A stretch of 64,000 nucleotides of DNA from Desulfatiglandales bacterium (GTDB lineage Bacteria > Desulfobacterota > DSM-4660 > Desulfatiglandales > Desulfatiglandaceae): contig OY759599.1 in assembly GCA_963662465.1 (NCBI GenBank), positions 6,848,001 through 6,912,000 of the forward strand, read 5' to 3'. Of the stretch, positions 15,001 to 64,000 are shown piece by piece (position 1 is the first letter of the stretch; every line of letters starts with the position of its first letter). Position numbers: made by a program.

Positions 15001-18000
15001 ACCAGCATGCCGGAATGGAACCATGTCCACGAAGTTGAAGGGGCCAGGATTGCCGGAGAGATCCTTCGAAAAGTCAATTACGACGAGGATAAAAGCCTCG
15101 AAATTCAGGAGATCATCCAAGGGCATGATTCAAGGAAAGAACCTATTTCGCGTAATGACGGCATTGTTAAAGATGCCGATAAGTTATGGCGATATTCGAA
15201 AATTTCGATCCGCGGCGTACAAATGGGTTTCGGGCTGACGTTTAACGAATGTATCGAAAGGCTCGGTAGAAATCTTGAATCCTGGTTCCTGACGGAATCC
15301 GGAAAACGGATGGCAATGGAAGGAATCGAAGAACTCAGGAAGATCCGTGAAAAATAGCCATTAGCGGTTGTCCCTGGTTTCCACGCCGGCGCGTGGGAAC
15401 CAGATGAACATTGCTTAACGTCTCCAGCCTTTAGGCGGATGGTATGCTTCGCCTTCCGGCGGTTTTCGTTTTCTGGGGAGACATCCAGGCAAACGCTCCT
15501 TTTTTCGCTCGTCCTCTTGGTTCATGGGCGGGTTTGCTCCGTTGGGTGCGGTGAGGGCCTTTTCTTTGGAGTGTTAAAGGCGCGGCATTATAATCGAAAT
15601 CCGCCAAGGTTCGCCGTTCTATGGATGCGCCGATGGTTCTGTTGATGGCGCGCACCATGTTGTTGTCCTCTCCGGTAATTAGGGTGAAGGCTTCGCCGCT
15701 GCGCGTTGCCCGCCCGGTCCTTCCGATGCGATGAATGTATGCCTCGGGGGTGGCGGGGATATCGTAGTTGATCACATGGGAAATCTGCGTAACGTCAATG
15801 CCCCTGGCGGCGATATCCGTGGCGACCAGGATTTGGAATGTTCCGTCGCGAAAACCTTCCAGCGCGGCCTGGCGTCGTCCCTGGGAAAGATTTCCCTGCA
15901 GTGAAGTGGATCGGTATCCTGCCGTGGCCAGTTTTTGCCCCAGGCTTTTGGCGCGGTGTTTGGTGCGGGTGAAGACCAGCACCGATTCGGCGGTAGTATT
16001 CCCCAACAGCTTTAACAGCAGCGCCGTTTTTAAATGCTGGGCCACCGGATAGAGTGCATGACTGACCGTTTCAGCGGGTGCTGTGGTCCCTACCTGGACG
16101 GTGGTCGGATTTTGCAGGATATCCTTTGCCAGGCGACGTATTTCAGTGGGCATTGTCGCCGAAAAAAGCAGTGTCTGACGCTTTTTGGGAAGATGCGTCA
16201 AGATGCGCCGGATATCAGGGAAAAACCCCATGTCGAACATCTGATCGGCCTCATCGATGACCAGCACTTCCAATTGGGAAAGATTGACGGTATGGCGGCC
16301 GATGTGATCGAGAAGCCGACCGGGGCAGGCCACAATAATATCCGTGCGCTTCAGCTTCTGAATCTGGGGATTGATGCCGACGCCGCCGTATACAGAGGCG
16401 CTTCTCAGGTGGGTCTTGCGACCCAGGGTTTCGATGGCCTGATGAATCTGTTCCGCCAGTTCCCGGGTAGGGGCCACGATCAGGGCACGAACGGAACCGG
16501 TTTTTTTCTCCATCAACCGGTTCAGTATCGGCAGGACGAAGGCAGCCGTTTTGCCGGTGCCGGTTTGGGCCAGTCCCATTACATCGTGATTCTTGAGGAC
16601 CAGGGGAATGGCTTGATCCTGAATCGGGGTGGGGGTTACATATCCCGCCGCTGTGACGCCTGCCGCAACATTGGGATGAAAATTAAAACGCTTAAAATTC
16701 AATAAACACCTTCTTTCTATGTTCCAGTAAAAAAAGCCCCGGAATTATTCCGGAGCTTGTATGATTTTTAATAACAACCAGGAACACCAAATAATTCTCT
16801 ATACTTTACGGATTATCAAAGTTAAAGTCAAGTCTCCAGCAATTCTAATTAACGAGATGTGTTTGTGGGCGCCGCTTTTAGAGCCACTAGAAATCGTGGC
16901 GGAATGCAAAACAGTTTTTTTTACCCATCCAGCCAGGATGCCGATTACGCTGTGATGATGCCCATAAATATTAGGGGGCTTTGTCTGAGTCGTCAGATTC
17001 TTGATGAAGCCTTTTGACGCCCGGCATTTTCTCCGCCTCCTTGCTGATTTTGATGCCGTCGCCAGCCAATAGAAGACGTCCGTCAACTATTCCAGTAAAT
17101 GTCAAATTCTGATGAGTCGCCCGGCAAAGCCGGGGGTTTACCTAACTGAAATTAGGTTTGGCTCACCTGTCTGCTACTGGCCATCAAAATCTGTAAGTGA
17201 AGTTAAAGGCCATCAGATGCATGCTGCTATCCTCAAACTCGCCGGTTACCTGTCCCACCGGGGCGCCATAGATTGAACTGTAATCACCCACGGCATTGTT
17301 GAATGTTGCGTCTGCATGAGACTTATAGCTGTATGAAAAGTCGAGCGACCAATTGTCGGAATTATAGCCTCCGCCCAATGAGTATACCCAGCGATCGGTA
17401 CAGGGAATGGCGGGAGTTAGGGTGCTGACCGGATTAGGGTTCTGTTCGAATGCAATGCCTGCCCTGATATCGAAGGATTTGTTGATTTTGTATTGTCCAC
17501 CCAAACGATAGGCCCATGTATCACCCCAGTCTTGTTTCACGCTTTGATCAGGGAGTGTGTTATCATAATCAAGTGTAATATTTTTGAAGGTAGACCAGCC
17601 CGTCCATTCGGTATCGAATTCAAAAGTCCATTTCTCCAATGACCAGGCCAGCCCCAGAGACAATATATCCGGAAGATCAAGATCGGCTTTACCCGTGACC
17701 GTGGGCATTCCCGTAATTTCATGTTCTATTCCTGATTTGTGCTTGATTTTGCTTCGATATGAGGCGCCGAATTTCAAGGTTTCGATGATTTGATAGAGAA
17801 ATCCAATGTTATATCCCAATGCCCAGTCATCGCCCGTCAGTTTCGAATGTAAATCCGTGCTGGAAACAAAAGGACTGGATGGATTGGGGAGTTTGTTTTC
17901 CATTTTAAAATCAAGGTATTGGCTTACCAGACCCAAAGCCACACTGATTTTTTTATGGGGTTTGTAGGCGATCGTCGGATTAATCGACATGGTTGAAATT

Positions 18001-63000: not shown

Positions 63001-64000
63001 CTGAAGGCAAGGAGGTTCCATTGGCGAGAGGCGAGATGGCGGTATGTAATGTTGTGACGCCGAGTTTAACAGCCTCCAGATAACACAGGGGTGCAAGCCC
63101 GGAATTACAATGGGCGTGGAATTCAATGGGGATTCCGTCGCAATTCTTTTGAATCGCGGAAATCAATCTACAGGTGGCCTCCGGCGTCAGAAGCCCGCCT
63201 CCATCCTCGATCATGATGGCATCCACATAATCTTTAGTTTCTGAAATGAGTCCCGCTTTTCGCCCCCAATATTCATCGGTGTGAGCCGGACTTAAGCTAT
63301 AGCCTACTGTTGTGATAACGCCGGCGCCTTCGGCTTTGGCGATGCGGGCGAAATAGACGAATCGCTCCATATTGTCCTGCCAATCGCAAACCCAGAAAGA
63401 CTTGATTCCGTTGGCAATGGATCGTTTTATCCAAAGCGTAATGATATCTCGGGGCGTACTGAGGTCAAAAGTTGAGAGACTGCCCGTTTGATAGGATCCT
63501 CGAAGAGGTGTTTTTCTAAGCAAACGGGAAAGGACTTTGATTCTTTCCCACGGATCCTCATTGAGATTTCGAACAAGCACGGTAAATGCCTGAGAACCGA
63601 CCGTGGCAATGGCTTTGTATCCGACCTGGTCCATGACCTCTGCAATAGGGGTCACCATGTCCGTCCTCATCATATAGCCCCAAAGGCTTTGTTGAGCATC
63701 GCGCAAAGTTTGATCCACAAAGTTAATCTTGTCCATGGTTGATATCGGCCCCCTTTAGCAAATGCGTTTAATCCGGTTTAAAATTTGCTCACTTGTTTTT
63801 TCCATCTTTTTGATGCATAATTTTGCGGTTCGTGTTTGTAATTGCCTGAACGTTGTAAAGCAATATAATGTAAAAGAATGACAGTGTCAAGAGAAATAAT
63901 AACATGTGCAACTATTATTTTTGACGCTTCTAACGGAAAGAAAAAACGAAGATCAAATGGCGCCGCAAAAACGGATGCCTTCGACGGATGTGATTGCAGG

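What a model noticed while it worked through the whole genome (the two positions that open the first line are those of the whole stretch)
17184..63736. Duplicated catabolic cluster pairing an active-site-divergent B12 acyl-CoA mutase with a two-subunit dikinase and a CtmA [...]
Two ~99% identical clusters encode a split B12 mutase whose substrate motifs differ from all characterised mutases (MRQPVALG for MRQYAGF, GYN for GYH), next to a two-subunit PEP-synthase-like phosphotransferase, MeaB, thiolase, CoA ligase, limonene-dehydrogenase-like CtmAB and a biotin carboxylase pair. The mutase-dikinase link is conserved across phyla, marking an undescribed activation pathway, plausibly phosphorylation of an alcohol followed by radical rearrangement.
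Evidence so far: Gene order and duplication. Best solved relative is 2-hydroxyisobutyryl-CoA mutase at E 5e-91. Ten close relatives (70-78%) from metagenomes and from records titled Gammaproteobacteria, Wenzhouxiangellaceae and Thermoleophilia; 8 of 10 have a dikinase subunit in the locus (the other two loci begin at the mutase), and the 8 aligned keep MRQPVA[LV]G. Paper search 122 found nothing with these terms.
(Added by a program. Inside this text positions count along the whole contig: contig position 6,848,001 is position 1 of the stretch shown here. "Call 12" and the like, gene names such as g00115 and contig names such as C1 are that model's own, and its searches are not shown. The text may have been shortened before it was handed on; [...] marks where a part breaks off. 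The agent that wrote the report below was given it as the finding of a first reader that could run no searches.)

Follow-up and report, generated by a model that had tools for sequence, protein, structure and literature searches.

The report
CoA-less B12 mutase in alkylphenol pathway
This duplicated gene cluster looks like an oxygen-free route for breaking down branched alkylphenols, and its vitamin-B12 enzyme has lost the coenzyme-A pocket typical of its family, so it may perform a carbon-skeleton rearrangement not yet described for B12 enzymes.

Summary
The duplication, gene order and altered motifs are real. Most of the cluster maps onto known aryl-ketone catabolism (Hpe/Acv/Xcc, MarK): two-subunit dikinase, MarK-like kinase, two LMW phosphatases, Ctm-like flavoprotein pair, SDR, hpe-type biotin carboxylase, ligase, thiolase. 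A Thermoleophilia genome carries the same cluster with an acetophenone-carboxylase-like ApcABCD in place of the biotin carboxylase, which points to an aryl-ketone intermediate. The new part is the mutase: it keeps the fold and 8 of 8 B12 contacts but only 4 of 17 CoA-channel positions (canonical 13-17), and the barrel is filled with bulky residues. It belongs to a 70-member clade. A basic residue at barrel position 82 or 202 occurs in 22 of 22 close relatives and 16 of 16 paralogs of a kinase-rich Dehalococcoidia genome, but in none of 14 members of a sister subclade whose five testable genomes gave no dikinase match. Best reading (0.45): a CoA-independent radical 1,2-aryl shift on an aryl phosphate that un-branches a 4-alkylphenol side chain. 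Substrate and chemistry are inferred, not shown. The scan's earlier notes held no look-alike.

The parts
39524..41269 (-). Carboxyltransferase + biotin carrier (copy 1), hpe/Xcc type
   Evidence: Pfam PYC_OADA, HMGL-like, Biotin_lipoyl; 40-45% to carboxyltransferases of kinase-carboxylase operons on plasmids L262, L261; pyruvate-carboxylase Lys replaced (IED)
38083..39522 (-). Biotin carboxylase (copy 1)
36341..37957 (-). CtmX1 flavoprotein (copy 1), His flavinylation motif
   Evidence: GFLHDTHA against the consensus in PMC11061730
34329..35996 (-). CtmX2 flavoprotein (copy 1), Cys in place of the motif His
   Evidence: 29% to CtmX1
33411..34202 (-). SDR dehydrogenase (copy 1 only)
   Evidence: substrate class not resolved by PDB search
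32732..33370 (-). LMW phosphatase LMWP2 (copy 1 only)
   Evidence: PF01451; C-x5-R motif
31410..32684 (-). UPF0261 / MarK-like aromatic kinase (whole in copy 1 only)
   Evidence: best PDB match 9MPY E 4e-52; D-T-K, Gly195 and His219 equivalents kept, His304 and His348 not
29317..30996 (-). Dikinase subunit A (substrate + His-swivel domains), copy 1
   Evidence: PF00391; RPH best PDB match; swivel His present; 26% to hpeH-like protein
28138..29307 (-). Dikinase subunit B (ATP-grasp), copy 1
   Evidence: PF01326; 38% to hpeI-like protein
26367..28085 (-). Mutase large subunit, MCM fold, CoA channel remodelled (copy 1)
   Evidence: PF01642; model pLDDT 91.6, TM 0.92 to 4r3u; 8/8 B12 and 4/17 CoA positions
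25994..26389 (-). Mutase small, B12-binding subunit (copy 1)
   Evidence: PF02310; DAHDRG
24974..25981 (-). MeaB chaperone (copy 1)
   Evidence: TIGR00750 over cut-off
24323..24928 (-). LMW phosphatase LMWP1 (whole in copy 1)
   Evidence: PF01451; C-x5-R
23047..24288 (-). Thiolase, SCP-x/type II like (copy 1)
21652..23007 (-). PaaK-like CoA ligase (copy 1)
   Evidence: below cut-offs
21026..21544 (-). Response-regulator receiver (copy 1)
19496..20584 (-). Geranylgeranyl-reductase-family flavoprotein
   Evidence: also in the G987 cluster at 41%
18926..19426 (-). BtuR/CobA adenosyltransferase
   Evidence: also in the G987 cluster
17184..18497 (-). FadL/TodX outer-membrane channel
   Evidence: PF03349
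43358..45625 (+). IS transposase between the copies
   Evidence: PF21804; 11 full-length matches at 97.9-100% in the genome
46016..46540 (-). Response-regulator receiver (copy 2, 74% to copy 1)
46647..49289 (-). PaaK-like ligase and thiolase (copy 2)
49327..49527 (-). LMWP1 remnant, 5' part deleted (copy 2)
49572..52683 (-). MeaB, mutase small and large subunits (copy 2)
   Evidence: mutase genes identical to copy 1
52750..55608 (-). Dikinase subunits B and A (copy 2)
55878..56387 (-). MarR regulator (copy 2 only; 60% to the MarR of the G987 cluster)
56467..56678 (-). 3' remnant of UPF0261 (copy 2)
56796..63736 (-). CtmX2, CtmX1, biotin carboxylase, carboxyltransferase (copy 2)

Best explanation
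The cluster degrades, without oxygen, a 4-alkylphenol with an alpha-branched side chain (4-isopropylphenol type). Two kinase/phosphatase pairs switch the phenolic OH between free and phosphorylated states. The Ctm-like pair oxidises the benzylic carbon with water; the SDR makes a ketone; the carboxylase carboxylates next to the ketone of the phosphorylated compound; after dephosphorylation the ligase and thiolase give a hydroxyaryl-CoA. A branched benzylic carbon cannot become a ketone, so the adenosylcobalamin enzyme un-branches it: it abstracts a methyl hydrogen from the aryl phosphate and the aryl ring migrates 1,2. No CoA is involved; R82/K202 hold the phosphate and H293/D214 a nearby oxygen. 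The shift may come before hydroxylation or act on the tertiary benzylic alcohol, as the aryl analogue of 2-hydroxyisobutyryl-CoA mutase. Shown: gene content, conservation, fold, residue changes. Inferred: aromatic substrate class (about 0.8), CoA independence (about 0.7), aryl as the migrating group and the exact compound (weakest).
For: Mutase keeps fold (TM 0.92), DxHxxG, MeaB and 8/8 B12 positions but 4/17 CoA positions; canonical 13-17. Summed side-chain volume at nine barrel positions 1257 versus 946 A3 in 77 canonical sequences. The genome's other three mutases keep small barrels (946, 946, 983). G987 has the same cluster with ApcA-D-like genes in place of the biotin carboxylase (NCBIfam E 1.8e-64 to 4.4e-245, all below cut-off; 5L9W E 2.7e-154) and a VprA vinylphenol-reductase-like gene. 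Window carboxyltransferase is 40% to that of a complete hpe-type operon. UPF0261 keeps MarK's ATP lysine and phenol-binding Gly/His (PMC12624787). G401: 16 clade paralogs, 39 dikinase-A, 46 UPF0261, 36 Ctm-like matches; 6 of 16 mutases within 2 kb of a dikinase-A, 1.5 expected. Basic residue at 82 or 202 in 22/22 and 16/16 versus 0/12; two clade members found afterwards lack it and their genomes gave no dikinase-A match. Other clade neighbours are phenylphosphate-carboxylase-like UbiD and HcrA-like genes; the genome has an HcrA-like gene (879 bits, cut-off 995).
Against: No activity or ligand data; the barrel was judged from aligned residues, not from coordinates. Two other divergent mutase groups keep only 3-8 of 17 positions, and the loci read for one of them lie among acyl-CoA dehydrogenases and hydratases, so motif loss alone does not exclude CoA. 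A CoA ligase and thiolase lie in the same run of genes as the mutase. R82 is also the canonical residue at that position. Dikinase-A is only 26% to the hpeH-like protein, outside the ~45% HpeH/CreH/PpsA group, so its acceptor need not be a phenol. The residue-kinase correlation was defined after seeing the data, rests on related sequences, and the two later genomes are 83% and 86% complete. In those kinase-free clusters the hydantoinase-family pairs score about equally as lactamase or carboxylase. The SDR gave no specific match.
Confidence: 0.45

Rival explanations
1. Same aromatic pathway, but the mutase is still an acyl-CoA mutase with a rebuilt channel: it acts after the PaaK-like ligase on a branched aryl-acyl-CoA (for example 2-arylpropionyl-CoA to 3-arylpropionyl-CoA).
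For: Ligase and thiolase follow the mutase in both G000 and G987; R82, R289 and R333 are kept; divergent mutases with 3-8 of 17 positions lie among beta-oxidation genes.
Against: Those groups keep small barrel residues (mean 1055 and 1108 A3) whereas this clade averages 1264; Q197 and H244 equivalents, which contact the thioester part, are changed; no acyl-CoA dehydrogenase or hydratase in the window cluster; ligase and thiolase are already explained by the beta-keto-acid step.
Confidence: 0.22
2. The mutase is CoA-free but moves an acyl (aroyl) group: it rearranges a phosphorylated branched aryl ketone, the ketone standing in for the thioester.
For: Closest chemistry to the family's normal carbonyl shift; an aryl-ketone intermediate is indicated; conserved H293 could polarise a carbonyl (99% of clade).
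Against: A ketone with an alpha-hydrogen can be carboxylated directly; it does not explain two kinase/phosphatase pairs; the UPF0261 lacks MarK's ketone-binding His348.
Confidence: 0.15
3. One reading: an aliphatic or terpenoid alcohol is phosphorylated and the B12 radical causes phosphate migration or elimination; CtmAB acts on a terpene methyl group.
For: Dikinase-A lies outside the characterised phenol-kinase group; CtmAB and delta-24 desaturase act on allylic carbons (PMC11061730); a geranylgeranyl-reductase-family gene travels with the cluster.
Against: MarK-like kinase with phenol-binding residues, hpe-type or Apc-type carboxylase, VprA-like, UbiD and HcrA-like neighbours all point to aromatic substrates.
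Confidence: 0.1
4. The large subunit is catalytically dead, like the beta subunit of heterodimeric methylmalonyl-CoA mutase.
For: Loss of most substrate motifs.
Against: B12 contacts kept (mean 7.8 of 8 in 69 clade members scored); own small subunit, MeaB and adenosyltransferase; the alignment profile scores far better on alpha (E 4e-119) than beta chains (E 1e-38); no second large subunit in the cluster.
Confidence: 0.04

Closest known systems
2-hydroxyisobutyryl-CoA mutase (PDB 4R3U) and other MCM-family acyl-CoA mutases
   Same: Fold (TM 0.92), split large/small subunits, DxHxxG, MeaB, B12-contact residues.
   Different: 4 of 17 CoA-channel positions; Y89, Q197, R207, H244 equivalents are P, S, W, N; new conserved H293, D214, K202; about 32% identity.
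Hydroxyphenylethanone pathway: HpeHI/HpeCBA/HpeD/HpeE/HpeF, AcvAB-F, XccBCA (PMC9618137, passages read; PMC12624787, parts 1-3 of 8 read)
   Same: Two-subunit dikinase, biotin carboxylase of the same carboxyltransferase type, phosphatase, CoA ligase, C-C cleavage.
   Different: Adds mutase, Ctm pair, SDR and a second kinase; LMW instead of HAD phosphatase; PaaK-like ligase and thiolase; carrier fused to the carboxyltransferase; dikinase-A only 26% identical.
MarK aromatic kinase (UPF0261, PDB 9MPY; PMC12624787)
   Same: Family; ATP-site D-T-K, Gly195, His219 equivalents.
   Different: His304 and His348 not kept; here beside, not instead of, a two-subunit dikinase.
Anaerobic p-ethylphenol and acetophenone pathways of Aromatoleum (PMC4630880, passages read; Apc PDB 5L9W)
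   Same: Hydroxylation, dehydrogenation, carboxylation, thiolysis; G987 uses ApcA-D-like genes.
   Different: Ctm-like rather than flavocytochrome hydroxylase; has kinases, phosphatases and a mutase.
Limonene dehydrogenase CtmAB / delta-24 steroid desaturase (PMC11061730, passages read)
   Same: Tandem pair of related flavoproteins with the N-terminal flavinylation motif.
   Different: Second subunit has Cys for His; aromatic context; sequences not compared directly.
Phenylphosphate synthase PpsAB, CreHI, aniline PasAB (PMC12167813, PMC7500099, PMC6114531, passages read)
   Same: ATP-grasp subunit plus substrate/His-swivel subunit.
   Different: Separate subfamily; Pas-alpha at 28% to Pps-alpha shows such distant members can still phosphorylate aromatic nucleophiles.

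Membership tests
MCM-family acyl-CoA mutase | TIM-barrel large subunit of MCM fold | tested here: met
   PF01642 E 8e-134; TM 0.92, rmsd 1.8 to 4r3u
MCM-family acyl-CoA mutase | Base-off/His-on B12 domain (DxHxxG) and MeaB | tested here: met
   DAHDRG; TIGR00750 over cut-off
MCM-family acyl-CoA mutase | B12/adenosyl contact residues (D118, Y243, E247, Q330, G333, D369, E370, P375; list recalled, numbering from the 5req alignment) | tested here: met
   8 of 8
MCM-family acyl-CoA mutase | CoA-binding, Ser/Thr-lined barrel channel (17 positions; list recalled) | tested here: not met
   4 of 17 versus 13-17 in 77 canonical sequences; 1 versus 8 Ser/Thr at nine barrel positions
MCM-family acyl-CoA mutase | Substrate-site Y110/R228/H265 (human numbering; PMC11988910) or known F/I variants | tested here: not met
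   P84, W213, N250
MCM-family acyl-CoA mutase | AdoCbl-dependent isomerisation of an acyl-CoA | not testable with these tools
   needs enzyme assay
Two-component aromatic dikinases (PpsAB/CreHI/HpeHI) | Separate ATP-grasp subunit and RPH-like subunit with swivel His | tested here: met
Two-component aromatic dikinases (PpsAB/CreHI/HpeHI) | About 45% identity among HpeH/CreH/PpsA and T/S-x-x-G-G-x-x-x-H motif (PMC12167813) | tested here: not met
   26% to an hpeH-like plasmid protein; Ile at the T/S position; separate clade. The characterised proteins themselves were not available for comparison
Hpe/Acv/Xcc aryl-ketone pathway | Biotin carboxylase with hpe-type carboxyltransferase next to an aromatic kinase | tested here: met
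   40% and 45% to such operons; 33% to the genome's other carboxyltransferase
Hpe/Acv/Xcc aryl-ketone pathway | HAD phosphatase and AcsA-type ligase | tested here: not met
   LMW phosphatases and PaaK-like ligase instead
MarK aromatic kinase | ATP-site lysine, Gly195 and His219 | tested here: met
MarK aromatic kinase | His304 and His348 of the acetovanillone pocket | tested here: not met
CtmAB / delta-24-SD flavoproteins | G-F-L/R-x-N/S-T/L-H-A motif in both subunits | tested here: inconclusive
   CtmX1 matches except D for N/S; CtmX2 has Cys for His
CtmAB / delta-24-SD flavoproteins | Sequence orthology to CtmA/CtmB | not tested
   no CtmA/B sequence was returned or 82

The most novel reading that the evidence does not exclude
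A whole branch of the methylmalonyl-CoA-mutase fold (at least 72 sequences here, 16 paralogs in one 2.8-Mb genome) has given up CoA and become a family of adenosylcobalamin aryl mutases that un-branch aromatic side chains by radical 1,2-aryl migration; phenol-specific members gained a phosphate site and co-evolved with dedicated kinases and phosphatases. This would be a new B12 reaction class and the missing step for oxygen-free degradation of isopropyl-, tert-alkyl- and bisphenol-type aromatics.
Probability: 0.4. Interest if true: 0.92.

Novelty: new variant of a known kind. Interest (0 to 1): 0.79.

Why it matters
To my knowledge (recalled) every characterised MCM-fold enzyme works on a CoA thioester. 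A CoA-independent branch would widen B12 radical chemistry, and thousands of such genes would be mis-annotated as methylmalonyl-CoA mutase only if the clade is large; here 72 were seen. How anaerobes handle phenols with branched side chains, where benzylic oxidation stalls at a tertiary alcohol, is open as far as my searches reach. The cluster gives a small, directly testable set of proteins and substrates, and marks uncultured Dehalococcoidia with tens of kinase, Ctm and mutase paralogs as phenolic-compound specialists.

Tried and rejected
Collection scans with alignment A1 chose C-terminal patterns shared by all mutases and returned mostly canonical ones; they served only as a loose control: a dikinase subunit was labelled in 1 of 159 loci (L009, a clade member), but my ORF caller missed even the mutase in 25 of 159 and many loci are short. 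The 50%-representative search added no closer relatives. No relative above 43% in 400 genomes of the phylum or 208 of the class, none at the threshold in 10 of the genus; 6 of 400 Dehalococcoidia-class genomes besides G401 had 39-43% matches; 1 of 401 in the class of G805 and no further one in 60 of its family. Best plasmid match 35.5%. Pyruvate carboxylase / oxaloacetate decarboxylase rejected for the carboxylase; PEP synthase rejected for the dikinase (match limited to swivel and ATP-grasp domains). Assembly artefact rejected. Promoter and terminator scans over 17000-36400 were at chance level. No RNA holder listed. Paper searches: phenylphosphate synthase + methylmalonyl-CoA mutase: 1 paper, listing only; 5, listing only; 3; top 25 of 162, none with 'isopropylphenol'; top 25 of 620, none with 'aryl migration' or 'neophyl'; the library lacks most subscription papers, and two structure papers on acyl-CoA mutases were not held, so the CoA-contact list is recalled. 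No supplements were read; Dataset S3 of PMC12624787 may list related clusters. Earlier scan notes: no look-alike by sequence, words or relatives. No complex prediction was run, as no binding is claimed.
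Full report
Observation. The window holds two copies of a minus-strand cluster: three paired segments at 98.8%, 99.3% and 94.4%, with an MCP gene and an IS between them. Order in copy 1, in the direction of transcription: carboxyltransferase-biotin carrier, biotin carboxylase, CtmX1, CtmX2, SDR, LMW phosphatase 2, UPF0261, dikinase A, dikinase B, mutase large, mutase small, MeaB, LMW phosphatase 1, thiolase, PaaK-like ligase, receiver, geranylgeranyl-reductase-family protein, BtuR, FadL. 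Copy 2 lost SDR, LMWP2, most of UPF0261 and the start of LMWP1, so both phosphatases, but kept a MarR that copy 1 lacks. Eleven paired genes differ by 117 synonymous and 18 non-synonymous codons; the mutase genes are identical. Contigs of runs X1 and X2 show both forms at the MarR site (possibly the source sample). The duplication is real and is not the interesting part.

The frame is a known kind of pathway. UPF0261's best solved relative is 9MPY, which is MarK, a kinase for phenolic aryl ketones and aldehydes that can stand in for the two-subunit kinases AcvAB/HpeHI beside a biotin carboxylase and phosphatase (PMC12624787, parts 1-3 of 8 read). The window protein keeps MarK's ATP lysine, Gly195 and His219 but not His304 or His348. 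In the Hpe route a CreHI-like kinase, an Xcc-like biotin carboxylase, a phosphatase and a ligase degrade 4-hydroxyacetophenone (PMC9618137, passages). The window's carboxyltransferase is 40% identical to that of a complete hpe-type plasmid operon and 45% to one in a Rhodococcus plasmid operon with kinase parts, thiolase and tyrosine phosphatase, against 33% to the genome's other carboxyltransferase. Genome G987 (class of a Thermoleophilia record; mutase 71% identical) has dikinase A-mutase-MeaB-LMWP1-thiolase-ligase in the same order, MarR, the Ctm pair-SDR-LMWP2-UPF0261-GGR block, dikinase B and BtuR. In place of the biotin carboxylase it has four genes in apcA-D order (ApcD-like E 2.7e-154 to 5L9W; all below NCBIfam cut-offs), and nearby a vinylphenol-reductase-like gene. 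Two unrelated ketone carboxylases in one slot indicate a ketone, most likely aryl-bearing, intermediate (inference). The anaerobic p-ethylphenol route runs hydroxylation, dehydrogenation and thiolysis to 4-hydroxybenzoyl-CoA (PMC4630880, passages); CtmX1 carries the flavinylation motif of CtmAB, a water-using hydroxylase, and CtmX2 has Cys there (PMC11061730, passages). G000 has an HcrA-like gene elsewhere (879 bits, cut-off 995).

The mutase is the new part. Its model is confident and has the family fold (pLDDT 91.6; TM 0.92 to 4r3u); the small subunit keeps DxHxxG. I mapped 8 B12-contact and 17 CoA-channel positions (lists recalled; numbering) on 221 sequences. The window enzyme keeps 8 of 8 and 4 of 17. 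Seventy-seven of 79 canonical sequences could be scored and keep 13-17; the clade holding the window enzyme (70 sequences, FastTree support 1.00, midpoint root) keeps 0-6 while keeping a mean 7.8 of 8 B12 positions. A data-driven check agrees: of 120 columns at least 95% invariant in canonical mutases, 36 are lost in the clade, mostly on barrel strands. Nine barrel positions that are Ser/Thr/His in canonical enzymes (946 A3) are M, N, F, A, K, S, Y, F, G here (1257 A3; clade mean 1264). The genome's three other mutases stay at 946-983. Y89, Q197, R207 and H244 equivalents are P, S, W, N; H293 and D214 are kept in 99% of the clade. Against over-reading: two other divergent groups keep only 3-8 of 17 positions, and loci of one lie among acyl-CoA dehydrogenases and hydratases; their barrels are smaller (1055, 1108), but motif loss alone is not proof.

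Link to phosphorylation. G401 (record titled Dehalococcoidia, 2.8 Mb) has 16 clade paralogs at 44-53% plus one 36% match, 39 dikinase-A matches with three stand-alone-length ATP subunits scoring E<1e-86, 46 UPF0261, 36 Ctm-like and 5 LMWP1-like matches. Six of 16 mutases lie within 2 kb of a dikinase A (1.5 expected, p 0.002), 10 of 16 within 10 kb (5.6, p 0.011) (catabolic islands make this test generous). Seven of 46 close mutase records share a longest-contig length with one of 24 close dikinase-A records, and 5 of 46 with one of 30 carboxylase records (indirect). The link is not clade-wide: G026 (99% complete), G006 and G402 hold members of a 12-sequence subclade and gave no dikinase-A or UPF0261 match, but 45, 8 and 9 Ctm-like matches. 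Lys or Arg at position 82 or 202 occurs in 22 of 22 close relatives (both positions), 16 of 16 G401 paralogs, and 0 of 12 in that subclade. Two clade members found later (G1341, G1270) lack both, their genomes gave no dikinase-A match (83% and 86% complete), and their clusters still hold Ctm genes, SDR, thiolase and a hydantoinase-family pair (the pairs score alike as lactamase or carboxylase). So the mutase travels with the oxidation-carboxylation-thiolysis module, and basic barrel residues travel with the kinases.

Mechanism (inferred). Two kinases and two phosphatases suggest two passes through an aryl phosphate. Benzylic hydroxylation of an alpha-branched alkylphenol gives a tertiary alcohol that cannot become a ketone. 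A methyl radical beta to an aryl ring undergoes 1,2-aryl migration (neophyl rearrangement; recalled chemistry, with a recalled precedent in aerobic bisphenol A breakdown). I propose that the enzyme does this on the aryl phosphate, either on the alkyl compound or on the tertiary alcohol, the latter being the aryl analogue of the 2-hydroxyisobutyryl-CoA mutase reaction and giving H293/D214 a role. Confidence 0.45; CoA-ester substrate 0.22; acyl shift on a ketone 0.15; aliphatic or terpenoid phosphate chemistry 0.10; inactive subunit 0.04. Dikinase A is only 26% identical to an hpeH-like protein, outside the roughly 45% HpeH/CreH/PpsA group (PMC12167813, passages), though the aniline kinase Pas-alpha is as distant at 28% (PMC7500099, passages).

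Distribution and novelty. No relative above 43% in 400 genomes of the phylum or 208 of the class; close records are labelled Deltaproteobacteria, Gammaproteobacteria and Thermoleophilia, a patchy spread. Searches (listings only, open-access library) showed no description of this mutase clade or of a B12 aryl shift. The enzyme fails the acyl-CoA-mutase membership test on the CoA channel while meeting every cofactor feature. Verdict: a new variant of a known pathway type, carrying an enzyme that may be a new B12 reaction class; interest 0.79.

Noticed in passing
G401 (locus L009; L219-L230, L256-L258): 2.8-Mb Dehalococcoidia genome with 46 MarK-like, 39 dikinase-A, 36 Ctm-like and 16 clade mutase matches, plus UbiD and unassigned glycyl-radical enzymes nearby: an extreme specialist for phenolic compounds; many substrate subunits seem to share about three ATP subunits.
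   Followed up: partly
G026 (L185, L186): 45 Ctm-like flavoprotein matches in a 2.8-Mb genome with no dikinase-A or UPF0261 match; its clade mutases lie by HcrA-like and phenylphosphate-carboxylase-like genes.
   Followed up: partly
Family f49 genomes, e.g. G395/G405, G212, G118 (L187-L198): 20-36 mutase candidates per genome (23 scored matches in G405), forming other divergent clades among beta-oxidation genes: unexplored acyl-CoA mutase diversity.
   Followed up: partly
G000:C1:2659245-2673950 (L001, L002) and G987:C1:1712000-1731999 (L274): Second, mutase-free module of dikinase, Ctm-like, SDR and (in G000) aldehyde oxidoreductase, HdrA and ETF genes: candidate anaerobic cresol-type methyl oxidation without flavocytochrome or fumarate addition.
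   Followed up: no
G000:C1:6932450-6947000 (L004): Mutase small/large, TRAP-like transporter, PaaK-like ligase, molybdenum-enzyme-like and hydantoinase-family genes 21 kb past the window; resembles the indoleacetate cluster (recalled); its mutase keeps 10 of 17 CoA positions.
   Followed up: partly
L261 (Rhodococcus oxybenzonivorans plasmid pRB98, 552324-569610): Aryl-ketone carboxylase operon with a split PEP-utiliser/PPDK-like kinase, OB-fold thiolase and tyrosine phosphatase: another kinase and phosphatase variant of the Hpe route.
   Followed up: no
L243 (Sphingobium sp. WTD-1 plasmid): Divergent mutase (5 of 17 CoA positions, small barrel) within an acyclic-terpene (atu-like) cluster with two NTF2 genes.
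   Followed up: no
G987:C1:1482660-1484290 and 1495150-1496100: CtmX1 and MeaB of the G987 cluster show frame breaks, and an IS5 lies before dikinase B; assembly errors or decay not distinguished.
   Followed up: no
window 42944-43174 and 45794-45888 versus 20622-20953: The IS sits inside a 90%-identical copy of the sequence that follows the receiver gene in copy 1, marking the end of the duplicated stretch.
   Followed up: partly
window 869-16702: Unrelated housekeeping genes: crotonase, penicillin-binding protein, RimK-like, amidohydrolase, aconitase, citrate synthase, HD protein, DEAD helicase (the first six named from the translations, not from a family search).
   Followed up: no
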